Below, in pieces: positions 6,514-64,000 of a DNA stretch of 64,000 nucleotides. The notes below the pieces were generated by a model. The model saw only the letters and a list, made by a program, of their open reading frames with translations. It ran no database searches and was not told the origin of the DNA. The number at the start of each line of letters is the position of its first letter. Within the stretch, counting starts at the first letter, position 1. Origin of the DNA: Bigelowiella natans CCMP2755 (taxonomy: Eukaryota; Protista; Cercozoa); the NCBI GenBank assembly GCA_000320545.1, contig ADNK01001791.1, forward strand, positions 1 to 64,000, written 5' to 3'. Both the position numbers and the translations under genes were made by a program.

Positions 6514-7008
6514 CCCTAATCCCCCTTTGGTCGAGAAGATCACTGCGGCCTCTGATAGGCCTTCGTAGTTCAACGTTGGAAGCTTACGCTCTATAGAACA
6601 TGTAAGAACACATTGTTCAGCAAAGAAATAAATGTATGGCCACAGGCGTGCCGGCATAGCTCCTTAAGTAAGTTTATTCGCTGTGTCGCATCGACGACCC
6701 AGCGAGGAGAATATTTCAATTTTACATCATCAGCAACTTCAAATGTCAAGTCGCAGCAGCCCCTGCATTAAGAACATCTTGTTACTTTGTAAGTCGTGCA
6801 TGCACGCGACCAACCAACATCTGCGGCTGCATTGCTGCCACGCCTGCGTCGAGCCCACAAACACTGTGATCTAATCTGCTTGTGTGTTAGAAACAGCCTA
6901 ACAACAGCGAAACATCTGGTGGTGCCAGGCTCACACATGTACAGCGATTGATAGCAAGACTACAAGACTACTAGCTCTCATGCACATGAACCAACAACTC
7001 GCTGTGCT

Positions 7009-8052
7009 GTGTGCATGGAGTCGCGCGCGCTTTGTTGCATCGCACGTGTGCCGCCGTTAACGACATGTATGCACGTAGATGCAAGTAAAATAATTGTCTC
7101 CGCCCCAATACATGTTTTGAACGTACGCGTTGCAATGGGCAACGAGACACACAATGGACTGTGCAATGCAACATGCACTGCATGCACACACGTCCCCCAC
7201 GTCCTCACTGGCACTTTGCCACCCCGATGTCAAACCAAAGTGCAGTGTGCTAAATCATGGTTACGCACTAATGCATGGATCGACACAGGCAGCGGTCCTC
7301 AAATCCATGAGGGAACAAATGATTGGAGCAGTTGTGGCTTCATCATTGAAAATCGAAAAGTGCCAGATGGCACATCGTGGATTGATGTGTCCACAAATAC
7401 GTGGAACAAAGTGTCCTTGTTTCGTCGGCTCAAATCGATCACTGACGATTTGTTAGATGACGAATTGCCCACCGTTTTGGCGACAACAGAGGCGCTGAAA
7501 AAAGAACTAAAAAAACATCACAAGGTGATGAAATCCTGTGCTTTCAACGAATTCGAAGAGGAATGGTCCAATGATTCATTGCGAGCTGTGCATCTCAAGA
7601 ATCTTGGACACCTTCCGTCATCTTCGATCACCGGCATCAAACTAAAACTTCCAAGTGTTGCTACATCATGGATGCGCGCCATCTGTGGTGTCGGCAATCT
7701 TGGAAAATTCATGTTCTCACGTGGACAATGCACAGAGAAAGATGCCACGTGCGATGCATGTGGCATCCTGAAGGACATGGATCATCTCCTGCAATGTCCA
7801 ACACACAGTCGAGAACAAATCAGATTGCGCAATCAAATGAGCGCGATCATGAATCGCAACGACGACACGAACCGGCTGACAAAGGCTGAAAAGGACTCCA
7901 GAACTGCTGCGCGCAGTGCGCGGCAACATCGGTCGCATGAGGACGCTTTCAAATGCATGAAGCACGTGGTGGCAGAAACCAACAGATGCAACATTGGCGC
8001 TGTAGCCGCTGCATTGCACAGCTACATCAGGATGACCCTTGAAAAAATTTAA
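7009..8052 (+). mobile_element. 3' fragment of a non-LTR retrotransposon (LINE ORF2 C-terminus), hypermutated
   Basis: Intronless 347-aa ORF containing CDACGILKDMDHLLQCPTH, a CCHC knuckle typical of LINE ORF2 C-termini. No RT motifs are present. It is followed by a duplicated 3' segment and a decayed (TA)n tail. Confidence 0.65.
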
Positions 8053-8071
8053 TTCTTCATTACATCCGTCT

Positions 8072-8121
8072 CATGTGTGCACACATGTGTACATGTGTGC
8101 ATGTACACACACATGTGTATG
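8072..8121. repeat. Decayed (TA)n microsatellite
   Basis: 25 in-phase dinucleotides: 12 TG, 10 CA, 3 TA, 0 CG. Confidence 0.75.
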
Positions 8122-8405
8122 TCACATTGTAGCGCTGTAGCCGCTGCATTGCACAGCTACATTTAAGGATGACTATTGAGCAAATTTTATTGATTAATTG
8201 CATCCATCTTACACATTTCATACTAATGTGTCTACAATCGTTTGTTTCAGAAACGACTTGCTAACCTTTTCCATGCTCTATCTGAGAATGTAACATACTG
8301 CTACACAGACGCGTTTGCATACACGCATCTAGATATTGTATCACCGCTTATTGTCGTACACGAGCGCTTAGCCGGTCAAGAATCTGTGCAAAACGTAGAC
8401 TTAAT

Positions 8406-9017: not shown

Positions 9018-9093
<76 letters not shown>

Positions 9094-9199
9094 GTGTGTG
9101 TGTATGTGTGTGTGTGTGTGTGTGCATAATACATACTAATACGTTCTACGCGTCTCATTTAAGGAACCTTATCAACAACACAAATCTTGTTTATACTTA

Positions 9200-13242: not shown

Positions 13243-13336
13243 ATACTCTCTAAAATAATTTTCGTTCGTTGCAAAGTTCACCTCACTTTGCGCGGATTTG
13301 TTTTAACGAGGGAATGAAACAAAAGTATCAAAAACG

Positions 13337-14740
13337 ATGGAGTCAGTTTGGACCAAATCCAATGAAGTAGATTCTTACAACGAAGAAGAAATGACAATGT
13401 TCGTGAAGAGGAAACTGTTCGTAGCCAGAGTTTCTTCAGTATCAGCGAAACAAGCACTGGTGACATATGTGAATGACAACACTGAGGAAGATGAAATGAT
13501 TCTCAGGAGGCAACATGCTCTTCGGCCTGCTGAATCGCTCTCTCTGAGGGAGTTCAGAGATGAATCATTTAGGATTCCACTACCTCGCAAAGCCTTAGAT
13601 CTAGCTCGACACCTTGAGGAAGGGGATGTCATCCAAATTGTCCAAGCCACAGTAACCTATGCTGCAGATGGTACCTCTGAAGATGTTCTACTTCGGGCTC
13701 CCCTTATCTCTGGTAGATTAAATCGAGAAAAGGTCAAAACCTGCGAGGTGATAGTTGAGGACAACTTCCCTGTGAAACTTGATGAAATGTTGGAAACTTG
13801 CAAAGCTTCTGCAGCAGATGCTACTTGCAAGACTACTGCTGCTGCTGCTGCTGCTGATGATGATGATAATGACACTGTTTCGACTGTCACCGAAAATGTT
13901 GATGGGGAAAAGAATGACGTCATGGGCAACAGATTTGATGAAACACAACCCGAGGAGATGAAGGCGCATGAGAGCCACGACTGCGACGACCTTGGTGAAA
14001 GAGTTTATGCTCAGATGGACTTAATCATCTGTAAACTGACAGGCATGTTTCTTGAAAATGAGAGGGAACAAGTTGAAGCGGTCACGTATGACAATTTTGC
14101 GCTTCGTGAGGCAATGATCAGAGCTTTACAGAATCTCAACGATGTAGAGAAAGAAGGGAAACTGCCTACTTCAGAAGTAAAAACACAAATGGATGTTCCT
14201 ACTCGTGCTCATGTGGTTCAGCCTCCAAAGACAAAGACAAAGCAAGATTGGAATGACTTGACAAGAAAATTAAGAGGAGAATCACAGTGCAATGAGAGAG
14301 CGAACAATTTGAAGAGGGAGAAGGTTTCAAAGGTTCCAGTGGAATTTGAACAGAAACCTGAGACATCCAAATCACGTCGAGCAGATGCCAGATCAGTGAA
14401 GAGCCTTGAGACACCTTCTCTGTTGAAGCCTATCGATGATGATGGCTGGAAGACTGTCATGAGCAAAAAAACCAAGAGGAGGAATTTGAAACTTCGGATC
14501 AAAGATCTTAGAGCTGGAGACGAGTACGTGGGAGAAGTTACAGACGCCTTCAACTTCGGTTGCTTCATAAACTTCGGATGTGAAAAGGAAGGACTCATGT
14601 ACTATGCCCACCCACGGAGGAAATCTGTGGGGCCTAAGAGCAGGTTCGAGGTGAAGCAGGGGCAGAAAATAAAGGTCAGGGTCTTCAAGGCTGACAGCTA
14701 TCGTCGAAAGATTTATCTAGATTTTGTCCATTACACCTGA
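13337..14740 (+). CDS. Intronless 467-aa protein with C-terminal S1 RNA-binding domain; probable retroelement ORF1-like protein
   Basis: C-terminus LRIKDLRAGDEYVGEVTDAFNFGCFINFGCEKEGLM...VKQGQKIKVRVFKADSYRRKIYLDF matches the S1 pattern. It is preceded by DDDGWKTVMSKKTKRR. No introns, in an intron-dense genome. Confidence 0.7.
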   Translation: MESVWTKSNEVDSYNEEEMTMFVKRKLFVARVSSVSAKQALVTYVNDNTEEDEMILRRQHALRPAESLSLREFRDESFRIPLPRKALDLARHLEEGDVIQIVQATVTYAADGTSEDVLLRAPLISGRLNREKVKTCEVIVEDNFPVKLDEMLETCKASAADATCKTTAAAAAADDDDNDTVSTVTENVDGEKNDVMGNRFDETQPEEMKAHESHDCDDLGERVYAQMDLIICKLTGMFLENEREQVEAVTYDNFALREAMIRALQNLNDVEKEGKLPTSEVKTQMDVPTRAHVVQPPKTKTKQDWNDLTRKLRGESQCNERANNLKREKVSKVPVEFEQKPETSKSRRADARSVKSLETPSLLKPIDDDGWKTVMSKKTKRRNLKLRIKDLRAGDEYVGEVTDAFNFGCFINFGCEKEGLMYYAHPRRKSVGPKSRFEVKQGQKIKVRVFKADSYRRKIYLDFVHYT

Positions 14741-15000: not shown

Positions 15001-16228
15001 GAATTTTCCTTCAAGAGCGCCCCGCCCCTATCTCAGCGAACATGTTGATGCATGTGCAAACATTTTTGTAAATGTAGAACTTTACTACGGCATCAACACT
15101 GTGCATGTGCATGTGTGTGCACATCTAGACATGTGTGTGCAAATCCATGTGTTTGTGCGCTTTATAGCTTGGTGACAACATGCATGTATGTCATTGCCAT
15201 CACGCTTGCTGCCTACGCCATTTGCAGGAGCTCCTAAATGCCATGGAAATGAGAGAATAGAAAAATCCACAAAAGTGTGTTGCACCAGACACAAATCATG
15301 CAATGCATGTCAGTACAGCTTTGTGGTCAGATTCCATGTGAGACGCAGCTAGGCAGGCTAGAAGGCCTCGCTAAATATGGTCATGCCTGAGATGCCATAG
15401 TAGTTTATCGTCGAATCAAAACGACGTACCTCACGTGAAAGCAAGTCTGGTGCTATGTACGTCATGTTGCACAGTCAGCGCGAGGTTTGACTACAAGCAT
15501 GCACAACATGCATGCTAGCATGATGCAATGAGCAGCACTAGAGCATTCACCACAACGTTTTGATGGTCTCCAAGCAGTGGCAATTTCTGTACGCATGGCA
15601 TCTATGTGATGCCACAGGCGGAGCCACACAAAGCATGATTTATGTCACGTACATAATGCGCATCCGCCACGCCGAGCATTGCACATGTCGAACGCAATGC
15701 TAAAGCACAAACTCACAACGTCTACTCAGAGCATACGACTGCAGGCAATTCCCTAGCCTGAAAAGGACATAGACACAAAGCCCAGCCCACGCCTTGTATG
15801 CATCGAGCTCTCTGAATGCCTGAGCAAGCACTGTACTCACCAGCGCATTCCCAACGCTGCCTTCTTCCCATAATAAAATGCTGGAGCAGGTGGACAAGGC
15901 CGATCGGGCGCAGAGAAATCTCAACGCAAATTCAGGAGCAGAGCCAAAATCGTCCACTAACCGCGCGATGTTTTCATCGAAGGTTTTTGCATCGTAATAA
16001 TTTCGGGTCGAACAAATGCTTTCGCCAGTCTTCTTATCCGCACCTTACCGATTATTATGCATCAGTAGTGTATTCTCCTTATGTTTGCCTCAGAATGTGG
16101 GTCCGGTTGATTTATAGTAAACCATAATATTATATATATTTATATATATTTATTTATTTATATGTATTTATATTTTATATGAATATCTTTCGCACGGGTT
16201 GTAGAAAATTCAAAAACCACATGAGAGT

Positions 16229-16301
<73 letters not shown>

Positions 16302-19711: not shown

Positions 19712-19746
19712 GTGTGTGTTAGCTATACGGCGAATTTGAACGGTAC

Positions 19747-19764
19747 ATGTTCGGGATGAAAAAG

Positions 19765-19804
<40 letters not shown>

Positions 19805-22476
19805 TAGGGAAAAGGAGAACAGGCCATGGCGACGACAACAGCAGCAACGACGCGGGAAGAGGGGGAACTCAAGCAGGGGCCGTTTGCGCCATTTGCCGAA
19901 GGCCGACAACTTCACGATGCAGCAGGTGTTGCTCTGTATATTACTGCTCCCCAGAGCACCAGAGGAGTCATTGGCCCCTCCACCGCATTGAGTGTGCATA
20001 CTTTGCAAACCGCAATGCACACCGAAAGAAGGAGAGAGAGCGGTTGGAGCGTCGTGTCAGTGAGGTCTTGCTAGACGACAATGCCGTAGATCAGGGAGAA
20101 GGAAGGGGGGGGCAGGTTCTGACCTCTGACAGTGGGATGGTGGAAGATATTTATGACGGCAAAGGCGAGAGAGATGGTAGCAACAGCACCAACGGAAACA
20201 AATCAGTAGATAAGTACAACAGCACGGAGAATCGTGAATGGAGTGCCTCGTACAATCGGTGGCTGGACACGACACAAGCAATTATCGACGATTTCAAGCG
20301 CAACCGCTCACTCTCCTCCTCCTCCTCCTCTTCCCACCTACGCCGACATGTCCATTCGCATCATCATCGAGTAGCCAAGAAACCCCCTCAAACACCACCC
20401 CCTCAGAAGCAAACTCAGCAGCTGCCGGCGAAAGCAGTTTCATTCGATTTCACCGCCCCTCCCTGTGCCTCTCGTGAAGCCTTCTCAGCTAAGGTTGATC
20501 AAGACAGTCGTGTCCTTCATGACACGGCGCCTTCGTCGTCGCTGGTGACTGCCGCGAGCAACAACAACGGAGGAGAGCAGCACTCGGGGCAGAGGCCAGG
20601 AGAAAACGAAAACCTCCTAACCTCCCCCCCCGCCCTTACGTCAGTGCTGCCAGCCCCACCGGATACATACGAGACGTTCAATCAGCTCAAAGTTGCAGTT
20701 GACTACGTTCAGGCGCACTCGCCCCCTCCCGGGCAGACTCTGCTGGTTTTCGCCCATGAGCTGGCACTAGGGGGGAAGCGAAAGTTCATCGTCGCTACCC
20801 CCAAGCGGTTCTTTGAGAAGTACATGAAGGTGGAGGCCGACTCGCGCTGTTTCCACGAGGTGATTCTGGACGGGGCGCCGTGCCACCTCTACCTCGACGT
20901 CGAGTACTACAAGCAGCACAACCCCACGCTTGATGGAAACCATCTCGTGGACACGTTGCTGCGGCACATCGATCAAGGCGTGCGGCAGCTTGTCATGAAG
21001 ACGGAGGGGGTAGGAAATGGGACAGCGGCGGCGGCGACGGCGCTGAAGCGGGAGGCGATCCTGGAACTTGACTCCAGCAACGACGAGAAGTTCTCTCGAC
21101 ACATCATCATCCAGCTGCCGGGCTATGCATTCCAAGACAGCATGCACGTCCGAGAGTTCATTCACAGCTTGTACGCGCCGCCGCCCAACGGCCTCGGGCT
21201 GCAGCCTGTCCTCGTCAGAACGGACAAGGGCTCGCAAACGTCCTTCATCGACTTGGCTGTGTACAATCGAAACCATTGCTTTCGCCTCTACCTGGCCACG
21301 AAGTTCGGTAAAGGGCGCTTCCTGCTCCCCACCAGGCGGTACAACGCTGATAATATGCAGCACGGATACAGCGCTTGGGACTTGTTCAGAAAGTCGCTCA
21401 TTACCAACATCCAGCGACCGCGGGGGAGAGGGGCGCCGCGGCCGCTGGAGGAGGAAGGGGGGGGGCGGGGGGGGATGAGTAATTTGGCACATTCTACCAC
21501 CTCTGCTACTCCTTCTCGTCCTCTTGCTGCCGCTGCTGCTGCCAATGGCCCTTTTAAGAATGGAAACAGCGTTTTGAAGGATAGCGATGATCCGACTACC
21601 ACTACTACTACTACGATGATTAGTATATGCTGCCCAGAGATTCCGTTGTCACTTTATCCTTCCTCGCTCAATCACTCACGCTACTTATCCGCGTATTCGC
21701 AGTATCAGCGCCGCCATCATCCTACATCGGCACAGCTGTCATCGGCATATGGTGCTGCGCAGAACAGCCAGGCCGCATTCTCAGGAGCGCGCAAAACTGC
21801 GATGTATGGCCCCTCCCCCCACCCCGAGCTCGACAGGTTCGTCGTCGAGGTGGCGTCCCGGAGGGGGCCGACGGCGGGGATTCGGTCTTGGATCGAGATG
21901 GAGACCGGGGTGTTTCTGTTCAACATCAAGGACAATCGCTACTGCGGAAACATCGGGCGCGTGCACAAAAGCAACGGCGTCTTCTACATCGTGGACCTCG
22001 TCCAGAGCTCCGCAGCGGCGCAGATGTGCTACGACCCAGACTGCAAGCACTACCGGTCCCCCCCCGTGCCGCTCCCCCCACAGCTGCAGCACCTTCGCGA
22101 GGAATATGGCGATCTTCGATTTCAGCAACGGCGGGAGCAAGAGCAGATGCAACAGCTGATGACACTCGAGGAGGAGGAGGAGGAAGGGGGGAGGGGAGGG
22201 AAAGCACACGCCGACATTAACAGCTCCGTAAGAAGATATACGTCTCAATACGGGATGGTGAAAGCGGAGTTAAGGTCCCTCCTGCAGACAGTGGATGAGT
22301 TCATCGTGCGCCGGCCGATGGCTCGCTATCAGCAGCTCACCGCTCATCTCGAGCAGTTTTTCCCGCCGCCGTTCGTTCGAAACGCAATGAGAAATGCAAA
22401 CGTCACGAAAAAGATTAAGACGGTCATGGAGAACCGAGGAGTCTTTGGCATAATTGATGCAGCCAAGAGCGCCTGA
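19747..22476 (+). CDS. PRIMPOL: DNA primase-polymerase PrimPol (AEP domain + UL52-type Zn finger) with N-terminal MYND zinc finger
   Basis: AEP motif I LYLDVEY, motif II SRH, motif III FIDLAVYNRNHCFRL. Zn finger RYCGNIGRVHKSN...CYDPDC. MYND CAICRRPTTSRCSRCCSVYYCSPEHQRSHWPLHRIEC. Confidence 0.92.
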
Positions 22477-23024
22477 AGTATAGCTTGTAGCTAGCTCCTA
22501 GCATTGGTCGCTACGCATAGTAGCGTTGACAACTGATTAATTAGCAGCAGCAGCAGCTATGGTACTATGGCACTGCACTAATGGAATGAACCACTATCAA
22601 AATGACGAAGCAAACATGAATGCATGGATGATATGGATTATTACTTATTACTGTTGTCTGCGCTGTGCTGTTATGAGACAGATGTAATGAAGTGATTAAA
22701 TCATCTCAATAGTCATCCTAGTGTAGCTATGCAAAGCGCGCTAAGCGCGGCGGCTACAGCGCCTATATGTTGTGTCTATTATGAGGCCGTGGTTTAGTCA
22801 TCAGCTAGAGCAAATCTGTTTACTTTTGATTGACCTTACAGCAATAAATTTGAGTAAGAGGCACTATAACACTTTTAAATGATGTGTGCTTCTGCTTAGA
22901 GGTAATGGTGACATCCAAAACGACGCACTTGGTCCCCTTTCAACTAGTTTCACATGCACGCCTGCACGCGCATTAATTACATAGCATTGAGATGTGAAAG
23001 CATGATCAGCTCGACAAACACGTG

Positions 23025-23460: not shown

Positions 23461-23528
<68 letters not shown>

Positions 23529-24045
23529 TGTTTATCAATAGGTGTAGTAATTAATGTGTACATGATAAAAGCGTGAAGGACTAAATTTGTCGTTTATTGA
23601 AGAAGGCGTTGTCGTCAGTAGCTTGCTTCTATACCCCCCCCCCCTAAGTGTAACACACACCTGACACGATCTGTGGCATGATGGAGGCATCCACCACTCT
23701 TAGCCCTTGCGTTCCGTGCACCTGTATGGTGATAATAATGGAGAGGCAATGATAAGTCCTAACAGCTGGCTATACAAGGAAAGAAAAAGTCATTTCTCTC
23801 TCTCTCTCTCTCTCACTCTCTCTCTCTCATTCTTTACTAAGACGCATGAGGAAATCAGGGGATGGCTATTATTCTCCGATGATGTTCACTTGCGCGTAAG
23901 TTACAGGAGGGGGGAATGGCTCCTTGGGCCTTCATCGCACGAATCAAGCACCAATATCCATCAAAAAGAAGAAACCTTTAGTTGGGAGTCAACGACGCTC
24001 TCAATCTCTGTGTCCTGGCCTTCTCGTAACACAAATGCAAAAATT

Positions 24046-24082
<37 letters not shown>

Positions 24083-26398
24083 CTCTCTCTGGAATTGCGT
24101 AAATCCTACAACGAATAGCAGCCTCACGGCCACCTCTATCACCAATACAGAGTAAATGCTTATATATTATCTACAAAAAACACACATGTACTTTTCCCAC
24201 CTATACCAACGTACACACACGTTGTATTATGCGTGAGTTTCTCCCCCCCCCCCCCCCTTTTCCCTCTTCATACAGATGACCCAAAACCAAACGAAACACT
24301 ACGGCACTTCCTCCTCTCACCCCACAACGACATTAAACAACAACCCATTCTACAGGTGCCGACGGGGTGGAAAATCGACGCGCTGATATCCTAGAACAGA
24401 GAAAGAAAATAACTTAAATTAACTGAGACGATAAGAATTACAAACGAAGATCAAGCACACGGAGAGTGCATACGCATGTACGTGCAAGTGCACACACACA
24501 CTCACGCACACCATGCGCGCACACACCTCCTACGACTTTTCTACTACCACGAAAAGAAATGATATCTAAAATAGCATTTTGAGAACAACCCCCGCGCTGG
24601 CCGCGAGATCTTCGTCAGACATCAAATGAGTGCCGGGGAAAACCTGACAATTTTTGATTGTATCAATGTGCATTTGTATATGTGTGTGTTAGTTTTCTAA
24701 TTTCGGAATGAGTATCAATCCCTCCCCCCCCTCCCCCTCCTTGAAAACCTCTTCAGGCTCCAGGTTACTCAAGGGAGATATCTCCATCATCATTCGAGCA
24801 TGTCGTAGACTTTCCGCAGCGACTCTGTATTGATGTGAGGGATGGCAAAAAGAAGGATGATCGGAAAACCTGTTTGCTACTTTGCGTCGGCACAAAATTC
24901 AACAGGATGTAACACACGCCAGGAAAAGAAAGTGCGCTATCCAAGATGTATTCTGTCCAAAATTAGAACTATATTTCGTTTGGGAAGCTACTATTACAGT
25001 CGATCTTCGTCAGTGGCTAGGTAGTTTGGATCAATCCTGAATGAAAGTATACGGGAAGGGCGGGGGGGGGGGGAGGGTGGACGGAAGGGGCATGAGGAAG
25101 TGGGTCCATAATTGCCACCACACGCTCATCCATACACTATAAGGCGCGGTCTCCATTAGTGCAAGAATGTGCGTGTGTTTGTGCGTGTGTGTGTGTGTTT
25201 GTATGTGTGTACGCGCACCTTGGAGCCTCGCGCGGGTTGTTTGACTTTAATGACACGCTCCCACGACTACCAACAGAACGCATATGTTGTGTGTGATGCG
25301 AAAACCAACGATAAAAAAAAAGAACCATCGAATCACAGCAAGTGTTATGGTTGAAATCAAGGCCACATACACGCACACATTAGAACATGTGGAGTGAATT
25401 TTACACTTTTTTATAAAAATATGGCGGTGATTATCGAAGATTGTGCACCTCGTCGGTCGCAGGTTGCACACGCTGAGCGTCATCCCAGGGAAATCTGCGC
25501 CCCAGTATGTATACATGTGTGATGAGTGATGCACGAAACATGCATGCAAACGCAAACGCAACCGCAACCGCAACCGCACGACGACAACGAAGAAGAGTCA
25601 GAGCATCTATGACGTTTTCTTTCGATTTTGTTCAAAAAAGAATGGTAGCCCTCAAATGCAGAAGTCGCTCGCCTTTCGATTCGTAGCCAATGGCCACCGC
25701 TAAGCTCTGCATCTTAACACTGATTCGAATGGCTCTTTGTATTTATGGCTGTGGTGGTATGACGCACCGTGGAGGGGTTCTCCAAAGCGGTTGAGAGACA
25801 GAGGCTGCACGTGGTACTGAGTACCGATCACGGCAATAATGGCATTACGAGCACGCTCAGTACAAGATTACGAGCATAAATGATTACCTGTATGTTGGGA
25901 GTTCCTCCGACGTCGCTCTTTCTCGAGGGGGTAGGAGAGGAGAAGGCAAACATCCCAACTTGGCTCGGCGCCATGGATAGAGGCCCCGTTCGCATCATCG
26001 CTTCGGAACAACGACAACAACAACAACGACAACAACAGTCAATCATCACGGAAGGCAAGCTAGTGGCTATTGAAGAAACTGATGAAATAAACCGAAGAAC
26101 CATCGATGTATTGTCACCCAATCATATCTTGCAGGCAAAAATAATATGTGATACATATACATTCATATATATATATATATATATCACCATATTCCGCAGC
26201 CATTTTTGCCTGTCCAAGCAGAGAGCCAGCAGCCTGTATTTCGAATGATTTTGTGTGTTATACGACGAATTGAATGATAGGAACTGAATCGATTATTATC
26301 GCATTGGTTGGCCTTTGCAACTCGCACAAATTTCGAAAGGATCATCATGCATGCATGCATGTGTGTGTGTTTGTGTGTGAGCGCGCGTGAGAGAGAGT

Positions 26399-28666: not shown

Positions 28667-28724
<58 letters not shown>

Positions 28725-36920: not shown

Positions 36921-37906
36921 CTACATAGTGCTAGCTTTGCTGTTGATGGTTTTTTTCTTTTTCTTTTTCTTTTTCTTCTTTGTCGGTTCTTCCACTCCGC
37001 TCGCCTCTTCCCCGGTAGGAGAAGGAGCAGCCGTTTTCTGGGCAGTGGTAGTTGTCGGGGCAGCTTTCGGCTGGGTTTCTTCGCTTTTCTTCCCATCCTC
37101 TTTCACGTCACCACCGCTACTAGTATTACCTTTCAGCGGTTGCTGGTGCTGCTGTTTCTGCTGTGCCCCCGACTTCGCTGCGGAGGAAGAGGCATTATTC
37201 GCACCGCTGTTCCCGGCAGCACTGTTGCTGCTGCTGCTGCTGCTGCTATTTGCACTCTTCTTCTTCGATGATTCCAATAGACTTCGCTTGCTTTCGGAGT
37301 AGAGTTTGTACACGGCCTCCACGATTCTCGCAACGTCGCTAAGCTGATGGCGCGCGTGCAACAAGCGCTGCGAGTCTATGTACTCCTCTCTGTCTATTGG
37401 CTCCGGGCCTGACGACGTGCCATCGCTTTTCATCGTGGAAAATAGCTGAGGCCGCCGCGCGAGGAGTCTGAACATCTTCTTGAGCTTCTCAAGCTGAGAT
37501 ATGACATCGGCTGGCGATTTCGCAACGTGGGGGTCCTGATGGAGGAGCTCGTATTCGTTCATCTGAATCATGGGCATTCTTCCACCGACGCTGCTCGCCC
37601 GGCCACCGGGAGGGGTTGGACCTGAGCGAGGAGGAGGGGCAAACAAGCAGCCCAACGACATAGACACACACACACACACACACGCACACACGCACACAGG
37701 ACGAGGGGTGAGAACAACAAGTGGGTAAATTGATCATCAGCGCTAACTGATGGATGGATTATTGTTGTTGTTAAGGTGGTAGCAGCTGGTTGCACTCGAT
37801 CGGCTGCTTCCCTCCACAGCACATCGTATATAATAAAGATAGTGATGATCCTGCTCCTCCCGTACCAATCCACCACCCAATAGGCAGGCAGGCAGGCGGA
37901 TATATA

Positions 37907-37978
<72 letters not shown>

Positions 37979-39533
37979 GTATATATTCATGCCCATATCA
38001 CTCCACTTCTAACCCGGTGCCGGCCCAACAGGAGAATCTTCGCTCAAAGTAGCAGCAGCAACAGCAGAGGGCCCTGCTCCAGAGGGGGAGGCCATCAATC
38101 CCTGATGAGCTCCAAACGACGGCAAAGGGGCGAATCCTGATGTGTATGGGGGGTTAATGCCGGGGTGATGCTTGGGCGACGACTGTGGTGAGGAGAACGG
38201 CGTGCCGGCACCTGATGACTTCAAATGGCGCATCTGGAAGGACCGATGATGCTGCTGGCTGCTAGGGAAGTGATGACGTGTCATTTGGTGGCGTCTCTTG
38301 AATAGGCGCCACTCCTCTACCGTGACCTGCCGGTCTTTGTTCATCCGTTGGAACTGATTCCATGAGATGGAGGCGAGGAGGGGGTTGGGCTTGAAGTCGG
38401 TGTCGTTTTGCTTCATCATTTCCGACGGGTTCATGTTTGCGGCAGAGTCGGCAGCCTCTTTTGCTGCCTTGGCCGCGGCCTCAGCAGCAGCTGCAGCTTC
38501 TATCTGCTCCTGCTGCCGGCGGTGCTTCTCCTTATAGGCTCGCCATTCCGCGGGGGAGACCTGGCGGCCAGTGTGCATCTTCTGGAAAGCGTTCCACGAG
38601 ATCGTAGCCCCCTCTTTGACCCGGTTTGTGAGCTTTGGGGTCTTCATGACCTGGTCCGTCTTCTCCGGTTCTTTCGGAAAGCTCTCCTTAATCCCGTTGG
38701 GAACCCGGACAGGGGCAGCCTTCGCTAATTTGCACTGGGAGAGATATGACGCCTGGCAGCTCGCTTGAAGAGCCACGTATGTCAATTGCTGCATTTCTAT
38801 CCAGCCCCAGTCCTTTACATGCACCATCGTTTCCACACCACCGCCATTTTTGGCCTCGTCATCGTTGTCGATCTCTTTCACCTTGCCGTCCTGCGGCTGC
38901 TTTTTGCTGTCGCCCTCCCCGTCTGCTCCCGTGTTCGATGGCGTAGGGTTTTTCTTTGTATCCCCCTCCTTGCCCGTGTCCTCACCACTGGTTTGTTCTT
39001 CCATTTTGACGACTCCCGCTTTACCCTCTTTGCTTTTTTGATCTCGCTGCTTCTCTAGTTCTTGCTTCTTCGCTTTGGCGCCGTATGCCACGGGCTTGAC
39101 AGCATCTGCCAGCGGGAAGTTGATTTGGTCGAAGGCTATATCGATCCGGAACGCGTGGTCCTCTCCATCACGCTGGAACAGCTTCTTCAGCGCCGCTTTG
39201 GTAAGCTTCTTATGTTTGGAGATATCCAGCTTTAGGACGGAGGGATCGTCGAAGATCATATCTTTAGCTGAGAATAATGTTCCAACCACCCCCCAAAAAA
39301 ACACTTGAGACACATGAATTCTTTGCGCATGTAGGATCAACAGTCGTCACTAACAATCACAATTAACTAATTCTTGCAAGCAGTGTATCATGGGTGAAAA
39401 TGTACTTACAGGATTTACTAGTCCCCGCCTTTCCCTTGCTACCGTCCGGTTTCTTCCTCTGCTTCTGTCGTTTGTGCGACTTTGGCTTTGAGTCTGAGCT
39501 CGAGGGCTGAGCGTCGCTCTTGCGTTTTCCCAT
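36921..39533 (-). CDS. Hypothetical basic, probably nuclear protein with a duplicated 27-aa W-rich motif (about 4 exons)
   Basis: First exon MGKRKSDAQ...HKRQKQRKK (NLS-like). Long exons in ORFs 38009-39340 and 36921-37697. Two copies of ISWNxFQxMxxxRQVxxxEWRxxKxxH. Confidence 0.7.
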
Positions 39534-42394: not shown

Positions 42395-44107
42395 CTCTCT
42401 CTCCCCCTCCCCCTCTCTATGTCTTTCCGTATTCGTTTCATTTTTGAGGCACAGCACATGCATGCATATGGGAAAAGGCTTTGCTCGTATCGGTCCTTCT
42501 CGGAAGTGGCGGTCTTGTTGGTGACGATGAAATACAAGACGATAATGCCACAGCGAGTCAGCTTGCGAAAGTCATTGACGACTACAATGCTGCTGCAAAG
42601 TCTAGTGATTCTGCAAGAAAGGGGGGTATGGAAAACAGTGTAGTAGCCATGATCATGTGATGATAACAGCAGCTTAATTCATCATCGTCGTCACCCCCCA
42701 TTATCGCAGTGCCATTCGCATCATCGGCATCTGCTGTCATGCTGAGTTGGTTCTCCAGCTGTACCCCAGACTATCCCCAAAAGATGAAATTTAATAAACA
42801 CTCGAACACCGACGATTATCGTACTGCAGCGCCTCGCTCGCCTACCGCAGAGCAAATTCGCTGCCTTCGTTGCGAAACTCTGCGATTGCGGAACTCGCGA
42901 ATGAGCTTTCCATTCCATTCACATCTCGTGATTTTCAAGAGACAAGACCCACGTCAGCAGCACTAACATATTTGTACTCACACGACTGTCAGAGGAGAGC
43001 GAAAAAGGCCTGATAGCCATCAACGGCAAGGATCCCTGGAACAGAACGGCCCTCTACCACGCTGCAGCCGCCAACAAGCCTCAATGCGTGCGAGTGTTGC
43101 TAGAGAGGGGGGCAGATCCTAATATAGGCCAGAAGGAGGGCGCCACACCGTTGTTCATCGCTGCACAGAATGGCTTTCACCATGTAGTCGAGGCACTTGT
43201 CGATTGCAATAGGACAGACGTCAATCAAGCGACGACGAAGACCGACTCTACTCCTCTCTATGTTTCCGCACAGAATGGGAGGTACCTGTCGGCCTCCTGC
43301 CACCCTCCCCTCCCCCTTTCCTTTCTCTCGTCCCTCAGTACGTTGTGGGCGCATATTTGTGGGGGGAGGCAGTTTGGTTGCGGCCTCTGCTATTGAACGA
43401 TAATGACATGGGGATGAGGGAGGGGGGGGGGGTGGCTGTTGGGGTTGCGCCTGTTTAAAACATCGACAATGGGCTTGTAATCATCATGATAATCACGATC
43501 AACAACAAAAACACAACATGAAGGAAGAATGAATGCTGAATTTGCCTTTTCTCCCCATACGGTAAGGTACGATGCCGTGATGTGTTTGGTGAAAAAGGGC
43601 AAGGCCGACATTGATAAGCCTCAGGTTTTGTAATTTATATACGAAGAGGGGGGGGGGGGGGGGAAGCTTTCGAAACTGACGAATAAAAGCAATAACTTTA
43701 GAACATATTGAGCGAAAAAACAGAGATGATCGTATCTCCCCTGCAATGAGATGTGATGCGGGACAAAAATCATTCGAAGATTCTCGTGAAAGATTTTCGG
43801 TTTTTTTTTTTTTTTTTTTCCAATAGTTTTCTTTCTATCTCTCTCCTTCCAAGCCAAGGGTTTAATGTGACGTGCATGATCCTGTGCAGGCTCTGAGTAA
43901 CAACATCGTTTCATCATTTCGTGCTCCATATCTATAGGCTGACGGCTCGACTCCTGTCTACGTAGCTGTGCAGAACAAACACAACAATGTGAGCTCTTTT
44001 AGACACTGAAAGGAGTGTGAGGAAAAGGAAAGGAGGAAGGATTGTATCACAAACACACGCGCGCGCGCACACACACACACACACACACATAAAATATATG
44101 TATAAAA

Positions 44108-56261: not shown

Positions 56262-56511
56262 CGTAGGGAGGTGTAAAATGCAAATTGTGGATCGAGCAGC
56301 CAGAAAATATACCAACAGGTTGGTCATACTACTGTCGTCTCTATCTTCGTGAAAAAATAGTGAGGTGTTGGCTTTGCTATCGCATCTTCTTTTAGCACGC
56401 TCGGTTGCCACTGAAACTTTGATTTCCTATGATGTAGCTCTAGCAACTTTCCCAAGGCCTCGTAGCGAGATAAAGCCATTTACAAAAGGTCTACAATTGT
56501 TTAAAGATTAG
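55332..56511 (+). CDS. PTRHD1: Peptidyl-tRNA hydrolase PTRHD1 (PTH2 family) with bipartite presequence
   Basis: VQYVVVRRDL..W|GPLIAQACHASTAA, MHKVIL, KLWIEQPENIPT|ALATFP...GLQLFKD*. The N-terminus has a hydrophobic signal and an Arg/Ser-rich LKLRGG segment. Confidence 0.85.
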
Positions 56512-57441
56512 CTAGATTAGGATAACAGCAGCCACTTTCTAGGTTTGAGTATGGATCTTCTCCTGTAAATTCTCATTTCTAGATTATGGTGACGGCACAT
56601 AGTCTAGATAGCTAGATAGTCTAGAGTGTGCTAAAAATTCACAAGCAACGTTTCATTCAACTAGTCAAGCTAGCAAGGCTACAAGGTAGCATGTTGATCC
56701 CATTCATGACATCTCTCATGTAGCGTTACATGAAATGAGTCTAGAAATACACTAGCACACGCCGCAGCTTGCTAGCTAGCTAGCTAGCTGGCATCGATCA
56801 TTTGCATGTCTAGCAGTGGGCATGTCAAACATTCTGTCATTACTAGATTGCAACATCGCTAGATCGCTAGCTAACTAGCGGTACATTTGTCAATGACAAT
56901 TGTCAGCACATGCAGCACACTCCATTTCTAGCATTTGCAAGAAAACTGCATACTAGCATAGCTACACAGCATGCGATCACATGTCTAGATGTGTGTGATT
57001 AGCTCGAGAGCTGCAAGTGCAAGTTCAATTAGCGCTAGAGCGTTCGACATGCACGACAGGGACGAGACGCAGCTTCCGCAAGAGGAAAACTTTGAAACTG
57101 GACTTTTGAAGTTCTAGTTCCAAACAAAGATGGAGTACCACGTTCTAGCGCCATAGCGTTCTAGCTAGCATACGATGATCTAGATGATCTAGTGATGGAG
57201 GCTAGGAGGGTGAGTCAACTCCATCTAGCTATGCTGGCATGCGAAGACACCAATACCATCTAGCTATGCTGGCATGCGAAGATACCTACGCGCTGTGACA
57301 CCGTTCAAGAAAAGAATTGAAATACATCTAAACATCTCAACACGATCTAGATTTGTAAACTCTCTCTTCCATTCTAGTCAAAATCACTGCATTTTTGGAT
57401 CAGTTCAAATCGAATGATACATCTAGACATCTAGATAGCTA
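56510..57441. other. CTAG-saturated intergenic tract
   Basis: About 36 CTAG in ~930 bp by hand count, against about 4 expected at uniform composition. Confidence 0.85.
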
Positions 57442-57583
57442 AAATTGGTGTACTATTGTTGAGGATTTAACATGCTAATGTAGCCTTCGAACGCACGAAC
57501 ACGCACTGCTCCCAAACGAGCAGCGCTCATTACGTAGTAGCTTTAATCTGACGTATATGAGTGCTATAGCTCTGTCTATTTTA

Positions 57584-59861: not shown

Positions 59862-60747
59862 AAAACGACTTGGATGCTGCTCCTGCGACAAGGTGTCCAG
59901 TGTCCAATTCATTGCAATGAACAAAACTCAACTTGGTGCATCTTGAGCTCAAGTGCCAAACGATTTCAATTTCACAGATCGCTTCATCAATTGTGCATCT
60001 CTGGACCTGTTCGGTGCGACATCTGTCGAAATGAACATGAGAACATTGTCACTTTGGGAGCCTTTGCTGCCATGTCTTCAAAGGAAAAGCTGTGCCTTGC
60101 TCTGGGGGCACGATTTGGTGCACCTTCGACAGGCAAAGAAATCGACAGGGCTCCGCCGAATCGATGTCCAGCTCAATGATTTTGCTGCTGTGCGCCAATT
60201 TGGTGATTTTGTCCTTCGTCTCTGTGCTCCTAGTTTCTGTCACATGCAAACCCGATCGAGATGACTGATTTCAGCTTGAACTTGGACACACTCCACCTAC
60301 TAGCCTGTTCCTCTCTAGCTCCCTGGCTCTCTAGCTCTGATCAACAGATCAACAGGCAGTTCACCTGGCCCCAACTCATTGTCCTTGGCTTCCTCAGTCA
60401 CAGGACACTGTGTTAGTTTTGTTGCTCAACACCAACAGGGTGCTGACAAGTCCTCGCAATGATTTTTGTTGAGGCGCTGCTGCACGCATGTCCAGCTAGC
60501 TAGATGTGCACGTCCCATCTGCATGGCCATGTGGTTCTTGCTCACGTGGTTTTTGCATCACTGGGTCAATGCTTCGTTCATTGTTCATTGTTCAACATGA
60601 ATCAACCAATTCGTTGACCAATCGCTTTTGTCCGGTCATCATTTCAAGCAAAAAGTGACACCATTCTTGCAAGTCTGGAAGTGGTGATGAAAGTGCCAGC
60701 TCCAGAGATCTAGAGATGCCTGCCTGTGTGACTGCATCAAGTCCATT
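59862..60747. mobile_element. TpA-depleted degenerate repeat/TE remnant
   Basis: 9 TpA in ~885 bp (7 CTAG, 1 CTAC, 1 TTAG). Tyr-free pseudo-ORFs rich in Cys/His. TE family not identifiable. Confidence 0.45.
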
Positions 60748-61078
60748 TATGTTTTAAGTTGCACTTTGTGTGTGCGCCCAGCCCAGGCCGGAGGACTGTG
60801 AGCATGTGTGCGTATCGTTGTCTAGTTCTAGAGTTATGCATCATTCGACAGGCCGTGTCGGCGCCAGAACCATCAGTTGTGCACATGCTCGATGACAAGT
60901 GTTTATGCACGATGCTGCTGTGTACGCCACATTTAGACAAGTATGCGTTTAAAAAAAGTGCATGCAGATAATTAGATAATTCAGGTTTGTTTGCAGACAC
61001 AGCGAAATAAATTTGATCATCGATAATTTGCCGCTCTATTGGCTAAGTTTTGTGCATGTACATATATTATGTATATAA

Positions 61079-61243: not shown

Positions 61244-62587
61244 TTATATTTCCGGCAACCACCTACCCGTCTTCGTAAATTTAATAGTGACTCGTCTCCT
61301 TTTCTCAAACTGAGCCTGAGCGAATGCCTTGTTCAACTTATTTACTTTCACGTCCCTAGAATCCGCAAGAGAGTAATGGCGTTTGGCTCGCCGAGCTACA
61401 TGGTTCGAATCTTTACTTTTCGTGTCCCCTTCTTCACCTTCAGCACTGCTTCTAATCTGTGCCGTTGTCGACATCATCATCACCATGCTCTTGCCAGCAC
61501 CTTCTCCATCTAATTTGCTATCCTTAGCCTTTAAGTCCTGCGTCGATGTTTCCGCCCCAGCTGTTCCATATGCTGCATCCTGAGCGACAACACCGTTGGG
61601 CGTTGAGCCGTAGGCTCCTGCTGCTGCTGGGTCATAGTATCCTCCTCCTCCTCCATAAGCAGCAGCAGCCCCATATGGATATGCTGCAGCGGCTGCAGCA
61701 GCATACCAGTACTGCTGATATGCAGCAGCAGCAGCAGCTGCAGCATATCCAGCCCCTGCATTAGCCTGAGGCGAGGCCCATCGTACTCGGAAGCAAGAAT
61801 TACCGATTTGTCGACCGTTGAGGCCCTGGATCGCTCTCTGGGCCATCTCTCTAGTAGCATAAACAACCGTTGCAACCCCCTTTCCAACTGGCATGGCGAG
61901 GCTTGTGATTTCGCCATATTCCTCAAATTCGCTCCGGACTTCAGACTCCGTCAACGTGAGATCGATATTCGTGACCAATAGACCGGAAGTTGATGCTTGT
62001 ACTGCAGGATCACCACTGCCCCCTGTGCCGTTCTTGGCCACAGCTACGGAGACTCTCATGGCGCGATTTGATAGGTAAACGCCGGTCATTTCTTGCACTG
62101 CGCGGTCGCGCTCCATTTGGTCCGTGAATTTAATGAATCCATACCCTTTGGATATGTTGGTCGCTGGATCTATAACTACTCGTGCTCCCGAGACCGTGGT
62201 ATAGCGTTGACGGAAGCACTGCTCTAGCATATAGTCTGTCACATCAGGTGCGAGATCTCCAACGAAAATAGAGAATGAGGGACCCACGCCGCTCCCTCCA
62301 CCCGTCTGAGCCCAGTTCAGCCTATAATATTTGCCAGGATTGCTAGGGACCGGTTTAGAGTTGAGGGTGGTTAGAACTCTTTCGGCTATATCACGGGAGC
62401 AAAACTCCACAAAGCCATAACCAGCGATGTCCCCTGTTTCTTTATTCCGGATCACTTTGACATTCTCGATCACATTCTTGTAGTCCTCGAACATTCGATA
62501 GACGAACGCCTCGTCCATGTGGGCATCAAGGCCTCCAACCCATAGCGTCTTGACATTTGTAGGCCTCGAGTAGTTCGCTGCCGCCAT
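61244..62587 (-). CDS. Triple-RRM RNA-binding protein of the RBP45/RBP47/Nam8/TRNAU1AP family, intronless
   Basis: TLWVGGLDAHMDE...VKVIRNKETG..GYGFVEF, SIFVGDLAPDVTD...SKGYGFIKF, a third RRM and an Ala/Tyr-rich tail. Likely ATG at 62587 (MAAANY). Confidence 0.9.
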   Translation of the reverse strand: MAAANYSRPTNVKTLWVGGLDAHMDEAFVYRMFEDYKNVIENVKVIRNKETGDIAGYGFVEFCSRDIAERVLTTLNSKPVPSNPGKYYRLNWAQTGGGSGVGPSFSIFVGDLAPDVTDYMLEQCFRQRYTTVSGARVVIDPATNISKGYGFIKFTDQMERDRAVQEMTGVYLSNRAMRVSVAVAKNGTGGSGDPAVQASTSGLLVTNIDLTLTESEVRSEFEEYGEITSLAMPVGKGVATVVYATREMAQRAIQGLNGRQIGNSCFRVRWASPQANAGAGYAAAAAAAAYQQYWYAAAAAAAYPYGAAAAYGGGGGYYDPAAAGAYGSTPNGVVAQDAAYGTAGAETSTQDLKAKDSKLDGEGAGKSMVMMMSTTAQIRSSAEGEEGDTKSKDSNHVARRAKRHYSLADSRDVKVNKLNKAFAQAQFEKRRRVTIKFTKTGRWLPEI

Positions 62588-62736: not shown

Positions 62737-63514
62737 AAAGGATGCAATGACAAAGAGAAGTCACAGTCCCAAGTTGGCAAGGCACGAAAGAAAATGGAAC
62801 CAGGAATGGAGGATGCACCTGGAAAAAAGCAATTGGAAAAAAGATGGACGAGGATTTCAAATGAGATCTTCAAGCTCCTCGATGGCTGAAATGCCATTCT
62901 TGATTCCTTCTGGTTTCACTAGTTAGACCTCGCTAAAGTTAGTTCGAGGCACTGCGTTTCGCACACTGCAAATGTCTTGCAACGTTTTGGAAGTGCAGTT
63001 TGTCTGTGATCATTGTTTCATTGTTTCATTGTTTCTTTTGGGATCGACTGCATCCAGGCTGGTTCAGCTTGTGCATGCCTTCTCATGGGATGCCACACAC
63101 AAGTGGCACGCATCTGCATCATCACGGAACATGCGCCAGCCCACACATTGAGCTGGATCGACTTGCTAGCTTGTTGTGCGTGTGCAATTGCGCAGTTTTT
63201 GTTCGGAAAGCGAGGCGTCACACGCGTGAACGGAATCACGCGATGTGCGGGCTGCTGTGTGTTCACAGTCCAGGTTGTCAGGCACAATCACAATTGTGAT
63301 TTCGCTGCATGACGAGCACAATTTCAAATGCACGATGCAACTCAAGTGTGACATGATCGAAATGCCATGGAATTTGCATCAGGTTTGACCCGCATGCACA
63401 CATGCGTTTCCATTTTGCATTGTGCAAATGAACCAATGCAATTGACTGCTGAGACGTGGCATGCATGCATGCGCCCTCATTGCAGCGCAGCTCACTAGCT
63501 CAAGCTAGCCAGTC
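62737..63514. mobile_element. TpA-depleted degenerate repeat/TE remnant
   Basis: 62942-63514 (573 bp) has only 3 TpA, all in CTAG. CpG is abundant. Confidence 0.45.
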
Positions 63515-63624
63515 CTATAGTCTAGGGTGCACATGCAAACACATGTGATTGATGACTTTGAAATGTGCATGATACCGTTGTCGTTCGATTCTGTTGTTCA
63601 TGCTGCAGCATGCACCACGACGGG

Positions 63625-64000
63625 TCATGCTAAATGAATCTGTGGCCATGCAGGATCACTGAAGTATTGAACCTCCCATCTGTAACAACCCAGACCATTT
63701 GTTGTATCTTTGTCATAGAAGTTGAACGCATAGCAACCGTATGTTGATGAATGTCCTGGCTCTGTTACACGAACCCGCGTGCTATTTGCCTGTGTGGTTA
63801 TGTCATCATAACTGTCATTGTCGTCATTAGATGCCATGATTATGACGATCAAACCTGCACAAGATATGTGTGCCAGTCATCAACTTCTTGTTTAGATGAC
63901 ACCACCATAGTGTAGGTGGATTTTCCGGGATTGTCCTGTGAAAACATAACAAAAAAGAGAGTATTTTTTAAAATTCTGAACCACAAAAGAGCGGAACGCT
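63625..64000 (-). CDS. Last exons of a gene extending beyond the window; penultimate exon resembles the end of a PH domain
   Basis: AG|DNPGKSTYTMVVSSKQEVDDWHTYLVQ|GT...AG|ANSTRVRVTE...QIHLA*. Confidence 0.5.

What the first reader, a model, noticed from the sequence alone, without database searches (positions are those of the whole stretch)
8072..8121. Fossil (TA)25 tract reading only TA/CA/TG, never CG
Seen: 25 in-phase units, 12 TG, 10 CA, 3 TA, 0 CG. Independent T>C and A>G transitions at these frequencies would give several CG units. Zero CG fits a mutator that needs an intact TpA, because one hit destroys the target on both strands. Near-equal CA and TG suggests strand symmetry. (TA)n is very common in this window, so it is the likely ancestor (inference).
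Basis: partly seen in the sequence, partly recalled or inferred. Interest (0 to 1): 0.75.

Follow-up and report, generated by a model that had tools for sequence, protein, structure and literature searches.

The report
TA-erasing hypermutation scar at algal retrotransposon
At the end of a retrotransposon copy in the alga Bigelowiella natans, a 50-base tract reads only TG, CA and TA, likely an old TA repeat rewritten unit by unit by the TA-specific hypermutation reported in this alga in 2026, and the retrotransposon itself carries the same changes.

Summary
Observation confirmed: 8072-8121 has 12 TG, 10 CA, 3 TA and 0 CG (P=9e-5), identical in an independent contig. The window is Bigelowiella natans. 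The tract abuts the 3' end of a high-copy non-LTR retrotransposon fragment that has lost TpA but not CpG. Sister copies polarise this: 9 of 18 TA sites but 2 of 51 CG sites vary, and tyrosine columns read Cys or His. Unit order is random, and sister tails start TA-rich. A 2026 preprint (10.64898/2026.01.13.699255) measured TpA>TpG/CpA hypermutation in this species, in viral inserts; transposons were only inferred there from composition. Added here: copy-level evidence in a LINE family, a microsatellite substrate, and survivors skewed to Y-TA-R, above all CTAG, not in the preprint's main text. This scan noted similar TpA erasure and YTAR survivors in diatom DNA (unchecked notes).

The parts
8072..8121 (.). 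Mixed TG/CA/TA tract, 25 units, no CG; inferred former TA repeat (tail or insertion target of the retrotransposon)
7190..8071 (+). 5'-truncated copy of a non-LTR retrotransposon: C-terminal ORF remnant 7189-8049 with a Cys/His knuckle, 1 Tyr in 287 codons; 12 TA, 49 CG, 171 TG+CA
   Evidence: depth step and loose ends at 7190; homology to L001 and P0121-P0124; RVT_1 on P0121 33.3 bits, cut-off 29.6
7997..8074 (+). Very high-copy 3' end of the element, also found alone as short SINE-like copies
   Evidence: summed contig depth about 2,000-3,500 times the flanks, a rough indicator only; 3 copies in this 64-kb window
8132..8209 (+). Second, short copy of the element's 3' end directly after the tract
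7179..7190 (.). Six YR units (TG, CA only) at the 5' junction; possibly the other half of a TA-repeat target
   Evidence: a run of 5 units ends at 11 of 569 flank positions, so modest, post hoc support
6700..7189 (.). Single-copy flank with TG/CA excess (rho 1.6-1.9) and moderate TA loss (rho 0.57-0.79); possible spreading of the mutation beyond the element
   Evidence: flat single-copy depth in 4 of 4 runs; gradient; no Pfam match in 8 of 8 ORFs scanned
22673..22760 (-). Third short copy of the element's 3' end

Best explanation
The tract is likely an old TA microsatellite at the 3' end of a Bigelowiella natans non-LTR retrotransposon, rewritten in place by the alga's TpA-specific A:T>G:C hypermutation. 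TpA is its own reverse complement: a hit on the top-strand A gives TG, a hit on the bottom-strand A gives CA, and either hit removes the TpA on both strands, so CG is not made (logic, fits the counts). Shown here: the counts, random unit order, TpA loss without CpG loss in the element, and TA-versus-TG/CA differences between copies in both directions. Shown elsewhere: the process itself, in viral inserts of this species (preprint). Inferred: the TA ancestor over all 25 units. Untested: the enzyme, likely an ADAT2/3-type adenine deaminase acting on silenced DNA (the preprint's candidate is Bn78255). Every unit of a TA repeat sits in R-TA-Y context, the class least retained in TG/CA-rich blocks, which would explain why the tract is nearly saturated.
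For: Organism: RRM gene 100% identical to JGI Bigna1/89018. Region 7001-8000: TpA o/e 0.23, CpG 1.03, TG/CA 1.64. In the 40 listed rows (of 102): window TG/CA against sister TA at 7229, 7236, 7316, 7334, 7996, 8028 (3 TG, 3 CA); window TA against sister TG/CA at 7263, 7398, 7509; CG involved only at 7272 and 7803. That is 9 of 18 TA sites against 2 of 51 CG sites, P=4e-5. At 10 Tyr columns in 6 proteins, 22 of 34 non-Tyr residues are Cys or His and 1 is Arg, against 27 of 466 elsewhere. Unit order matches shuffles: runs P=0.28, palindrome P=0.43, inverted repeat P=0.65, direct repeat P=0.16. Sister tails: consensus of 25 contigs reads TA-CA-TA-TA-TA-TA after the element end, agreement 0.57 (similar in 4 runs). 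The window has 17 (TA)n>=9 arrays against 3 (CG)n>=4, longest 8. Preprint: hypermutation only at TpA, about 6e-7 per site per generation, RT and endonuclease domains enriched among TpA-poor CDS.
Against: Sister tails are short and variable: only 1 of the 6 other held copies shows TATA right after the end, and consensus agreement is 0.39-0.61. Only 40 of 102 difference rows were visible, and of these 14 are transversions and 9 non-YR transitions, so ordinary mutation is also present. At 7509 and 7398 the window has TA where 97% and 79% of depth has TG/CA, which may be reverse changes. Two TG-versus-CA sites (7364-5, 7412-3) fit a TA or a CG ancestor. Phe fills 9 of the 34 non-Tyr cells. Part of the low TpA may be inherited from the master element. 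No change in the tract in run X2, so no sign of present activity. The preprint saw new mutations only in two single-copy viral regions, although it excluded sites above 2x mean depth.
Confidence: 0.76

Rival explanations
1. A compound (CA)n/(TA)n/(TG)n microsatellite reshuffled by slippage, with the TpA mutator acting only on its TA part or not at all.
For: Compound arrays occur in the window at 9021-9124, 16232-16296, 23462-23529, 28671-28724 and 37900-37980. They also lack CG. Sister tails do not document 25 TA units.
Against: Those arrays have pure blocks of 10 or more units; here the longest run is 4 and there are 10 runs against 11.9 expected for random order. The adjoining element shows the TpA signature independently.
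Confidence: 0.13
2. Methyl-CpG decay of a (CG)n tract, which also yields TG and CA.
For: Two CG-versus-TG/CA differences in the family (7272, 7803); CpG is slightly lower in TG/CA-rich blocks (0.83 against 0.92).
Against: Survivors are TA (3), not CG (0). CpG o/e next door is 1.03. (CG)n arrays are rare and short. Sister tails are TA-rich.
Confidence: 0.04
3. Template switching or fold-back during retrotransposition built a palindromic CA/TG tract from a short seed.
For: A 16-base palindrome at 8072-8087 and inverted arms at 8078-8101.
Against: Palindrome, inverted and direct repeat lengths are ordinary for shuffled units (P 0.43, 0.65, 0.16).
Confidence: 0.04
4. ADAR-like editing of the element's RNA before reverse transcription.
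For: ADAR favours U before the edited A (as stated in the preprint's discussion).
Against: It would give only TG on the sense strand. The element has 3 TA>TG and 3 TA>CA, the tract 12 TG and 10 CA, and the single-copy flank is also TG/CA-rich.
Confidence: 0.02
5. Rival for the chemistry only: same TpA target, but the lesion is a modified thymine (oxidised T that pairs with G) or an error-prone polymerase, not a deaminated adenine.
For: Sequence cannot tell A>G on one strand from T>C on the other. No enzyme has been shown; the preprint's candidate rests on motifs and predicted structure. Thymine modification of repeats in other protists is recalled, not checked here.
Against: A U/T before the edited A is the natural context of TadA/ADAT enzymes (recalled; U33-A34 of tRNA).
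Confidence: 0.25

Closest known systems
TpA-specific hypermutation of integrated NCLDV and virophage DNA in Bigelowiella natans (Mettrop et al., bioRxiv 10.64898/2026.01.13.699255; read parts 1-4 of 5 of the text, supplements not seen)
   Same: Same species, same change (TpA to TpG or CpA), both strands, foreign or selfish DNA. The 1-kb window 7001-8000 (TpA 0.23, TG/CA 1.64) meets the paper's cut-offs (0.43 and 1.52), by a similar, strand-symmetric rho.
   Different: There measured de novo in two single-copy viral inserts, with transposons inferred from composition only. Here it is a fossil in a high-copy LINE family, polarised by sister copies, with a microsatellite substrate and a flanking-base skew. 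The main text has 0 hits for CTAG, microsatellite, CpG, context, retrotranspos and flank.
Fungal repeat-induced point mutation (RIP; recalled, and cited as analogy in the preprint)
   Same: Dinucleotide-specific, both-strand hypermutation of repeats, with leakage into flanks.
   Different: Opposite direction: RIP turns CpA into TpA and raises TpA; this removes TpA. The preprint's main target is single-copy, so homology pairing is not needed there.
Methyl-CpG deamination of repeats (recalled)
   Same: Also a self-destroying palindromic target that gives TG and CA.
   Different: Target is CG; here CpG is near expectation and the survivors are TA.
Non-LTR retrotransposons with microsatellite tails or targets (search listing only, e.g. 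PMC2887409)
   Same: 5'-truncated copies, short high-copy 3' ends, simple-repeat tail.
   Different: Clade not determined here; no endonuclease domain was held.

Membership tests
B. natans TpA hypermutation | Host is B. natans | tested here: met
   100% identity to Bigna1/89018
B. natans TpA hypermutation | Changes are TpA>TpG and TpA>CpA, both strands | tested here: met
   3 and 3 polarised sites; 9 of 18 TA against 2 of 51 CG sites vary; Tyr to Cys/His
B. natans TpA hypermutation | TpA depletion with CpA+TpG excess (rho <=0.43 and >=1.52 per kb) | tested here: met
   7001-8000: 0.23 and 1.64; one window only, so not a 3-window cluster
B. natans TpA hypermutation | Target is DNA of viral or other foreign origin | tested here: met
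   retrotransposon, not virus: RVT_1 on relative P0121; the preprint proposes transposons as possible targets
B. natans TpA hypermutation | Raised de novo rate, in a subset of lines | tested here: inconclusive
   one run's contig over the tract has 0 differences; far too little to measure a rate
B. natans TpA hypermutation | Caused by an ADAT2-like deaminase (proposed only) | not testable with these tools
   no genome held; needs biochemistry
Fungal RIP | C>T at CpA, raising TpA | tested here: not met
   TpA is depleted
Methyl-CpG decay | CpG depleted, CG the variable site | tested here: not met
   CpG o/e 1.03; 2 of 51 CG sites vary
Non-LTR retrotransposon | Reverse transcriptase domain upstream of a C-terminal Cys/His region | tested here: met
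   not in the truncated window copy; in P0121 (33.3 bits, above cut-off) and weakly in L001 (18.9 bits, below cut-off); window fragment 70% identical to P0121
Non-LTR retrotransposon | 5' truncation and simple-repeat 3' tail | tested here: met
   loose ends at 7190 and behind 8054-8074
Non-LTR retrotransposon | Target-site duplication; clade-defining endonuclease | tested here: inconclusive
   no clear duplication seen by eye; N-terminus not held

The most novel reading that the evidence does not exclude
B. natans runs a standing, RIP-in-reverse defence against its own retrotransposons: a DNA adenine deaminase, recruited to the thousands-of-copies 3' end, erases TpA outward for about a kilobase into element and host flank, prefers TA followed by a pyrimidine (or preceded by a purine) and spares CTAG; the same context rule in diatoms would mean one enzyme class shared across Rhizaria and stramenopiles.
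Probability: 0.3. Interest if true: 0.8.

Novelty: new member of a known kind. Interest (0 to 1): 0.48.

Why it matters
The preprint leaves open whether the TpA mutator hits transposons, how it is aimed and which enzyme does it; its filters excluded high-depth repeats. This locus shows the signature copy by copy in a LINE family, and TA repeats next to such copies are ready-made dosimeters: each unit records one hit and its strand. The skew of survivors (Y-TA-R, CTAG) is a fingerprint that can be tested at once on the 231 published mutations and on a candidate enzyme. The mechanism itself is not new, which caps the score.

Tried and rejected
No whole genome is held, so the genome-wide tract scan could not be run. 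Palindrome or duplication origin: rejected by shuffles. ApT-specific mutator: GC occurs in the other phase. The broad set of mixed YR tracts of 6 or more units is not CG-free (16 CG in 158 units over 18 tracts), so zero CG holds for this tract and 15100-15123, 15130-15141, 15179-15190, 26346-26369, 42455-42470, 61051-61066 and one in L002, not for all. Viral contigs: 0 matches. Metagenomes: only 2 loci. Pfam on 34 of 49 ORFs from TG/CA-rich blocks (those of four blocks left out) gave nothing above cut-off, so the other blocks are unclassified. Which strand or side sets the context preference could not be resolved from TG-versus-CA counts. Literature searches found only the one preprint on this process; subscription journals are mostly not searched. 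No earlier notes on this genome or sequence.

Full report
Observation. The tract at 8072-8121 has 25 in-phase pyrimidine-purine units: 12 TG, 10 CA, 3 TA, 0 CG. Independent T>C and A>G changes would give 4.8 CG; zero has P=9e-5 given the margins. A TA-exclusive model fits far better (lnL -3.3 against -13.0). None of 3000 Markov simulations of the local region gave a run above 14 units, so the ancestor was already an alternating repeat. A contig of run X2 spans 8047-8135 with no difference.

Organism and setting. An RRM gene at 61244-62587 is 100% identical to JGI Bigna1/89018, so the window is the chlorarachniophyte Bigelowiella natans. The tract follows a repeat that starts at 7190, where summed contig depth rises about 60-fold in 4 of 4 runs, and about 2,000-fold or more at 7997-8074 (the tool warns that this is no copy number). 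The repeat is a 5'-truncated non-LTR retrotransposon: its ORF remnant is 70% identical to P0121, which carries RVT_1 above cut-off, and 93% identical to P0124. A second short 3'-end copy follows the tract (8132-8209) and a third lies at 22673-22760.

What was lost is TpA, not CpG. In 7001-8000 TpA o/e is 0.23, CpG 1.03 and TG/CA 1.64. The ORF has 1 Tyr in 287 codons, against 24 of 448 and 11 of 477 in two host genes. In the 40 visible rows (of 102), six sites have TG or CA in the window and TA in sisters (3 TG, 3 CA), three have TA in the window and TG or CA in sisters, two are TG against CA, and two involve CG; 14 rows are transversions and 9 are transitions outside YR steps. Per target, 9 of 18 TA and 2 of 51 CG sites vary (P=4e-5). 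At 10 Tyr columns of six proteins, 22 of 34 non-Tyr residues are Cys or His, 9 Phe and 1 Arg: the protein-level twin of 'no CG'. Against this: 7509 and 7398 may be reverse changes, and part of the low TpA may be inherited from the master element.

Ancestor of the tract. Unit order is indistinguishable from random (runs P=0.28, longest run 4, palindrome P=0.43, direct repeat P=0.16), unlike the compound CA/TA/TG arrays of the window, which have long pure blocks. Sister copies continue TA-rich after the element end (25 contigs, agreement 0.57; similar), but only 1 of 6 other held copies shows TATA there. Six YR units also sit at the 5' junction (7179-7190; a 2% event in this flank). (TA)n>=9 occurs 17 times in the window, (CG)n>=4 three times. 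A TA tail or TA target site is therefore the best ancestor, but 25 pure units are inferred.

Mechanism. TpA is palindromic; a hit on either strand gives TG or CA and removes the target on both. Both products occur in the element and the single-copy flank is also TG/CA-rich, which argues for action on chromosomal DNA and against editing of the element's RNA. The enzyme is unknown; an ADAT2/3-type deaminase is the published guess, and a thymine lesion cannot be excluded from sequence.

What is known. The preprint 10.64898/2026.01.13.699255 (parts 1-4 of 5 read; supplements not seen) reports this very change in B. natans mutation-accumulation lines, at about 6e-7 per site per generation in two viral inserts, and infers transposon targets from TpA-poor CDS. 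It excluded sites above twice the mean depth. Its main text does not mention microsatellites, CTAG, context or flanks; its Table S2 and Fig. 2B, which I could not see, may bear on context. In 10.1101/2025.03.17.643675 (passages only) B. natans transposons and repressed genes share one H3K9me3+H3K27me3 state, a candidate guide. Six searches found no other paper on the process.

What is added. In 12 blocks chosen only by TG+CA excess, TA retention relative to the rest runs from ATAT 0.23, GTAC 0.35 and ATAC 0.40 to TTAA 0.59, CTAC 0.65, CTAA 1.06 and CTAG 1.65. CTAG is 39 of 255 TA against 117 of 2832 (P=6e-11), or 26 of 229 without the CTAG-rich block at 56.65-57.05 kb (P=1e-5); other YTAR is only weakly raised (41 of 203 against 400 of 2715, P=0.026). 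Selection on TG+CA inflates the R-TA-Y end of that ratio, so the firm part is YTAR/CTAG survival. In element-defined DNA, YTAR is 6 of 12 (window, with no CTAG) and 6 of 15 (L001, homologous, so not independent) against 42 of 253 in five host CDS. CTAG is enriched in absolute terms in some blocks, so it may be regenerated rather than spared. TpA is lowest near the element's 3' end both in the window and in L001, where it climbs from about 0 to 1.0 towards the RT domain; this fits spreading from the high-copy end, or selection on RT. After I had computed this, the scan's notes showed TpA erasure and YTAR survivors in diatom DNA; these are unchecked AI notes.

Verdict. Real feature, right mechanism, known process, new kind of target with a testable context rule. 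Interest 0.48; new member of a known kind.

Noticed in passing
window 56400-57450: Block with 37 CTAG among 81 TA in about 1 kb (36.6 per kb against 1.7 elsewhere), also TG/CA-rich and with almost no CCGG; a similar CTAG-rich flank follows the element in L001 (11 CTAG in 194 bases). Source of the CTAG excess unexplained.
   Followed up: partly
window 59880-60900 and 62950-63660: Two more TpA-erased blocks (15 and 8 TA left, 9 and 4 of them CTAG) on either side of an untouched RRM gene. The first looks by eye like a decayed LTR gag/protease on the minus strand; no Pfam match.
   Followed up: partly
window 15030-15900: TG/CA-rich block with three more mixed tracts without CG (15100-15123, 15130-15141, 15179-15190).
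   Followed up: partly
window 7997-8074, 8132-8209, 22673-22760; L002 (three copies in 2.9 kb): The last 77 bases of the LINE behave like a SINE of thousands of copies and are nearly invariant at the front; the one conserved Tyr codon lies there in CTAC context.
   Followed up: partly
L001 200-1769 (minus strand): Open RT-to-C-terminus frame with a TpA gradient, rho 1.03 at the RT end to 0 near the 3' end.
   Followed up: partly
window, many sites: Perfect dinucleotide arrays cluster at 28-40 bases and (TA)n arrays outside repeats are unmutated; compound (CA)n(TA)n(TG)n arrays recur, e.g. 9021-9124.
   Followed up: no
window 19723-22476 (+): Long ORF joining a MYND finger to a PrimPol-type zinc domain (Herpes_UL52 hit).
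   Followed up: no
window 13307-14740 (+): Intronless 477-codon ORF with a C-terminal S1 domain, low in both CpG (0.52-0.63) and TpA (0.34-0.52) without strong TG/CA excess.
   Followed up: no
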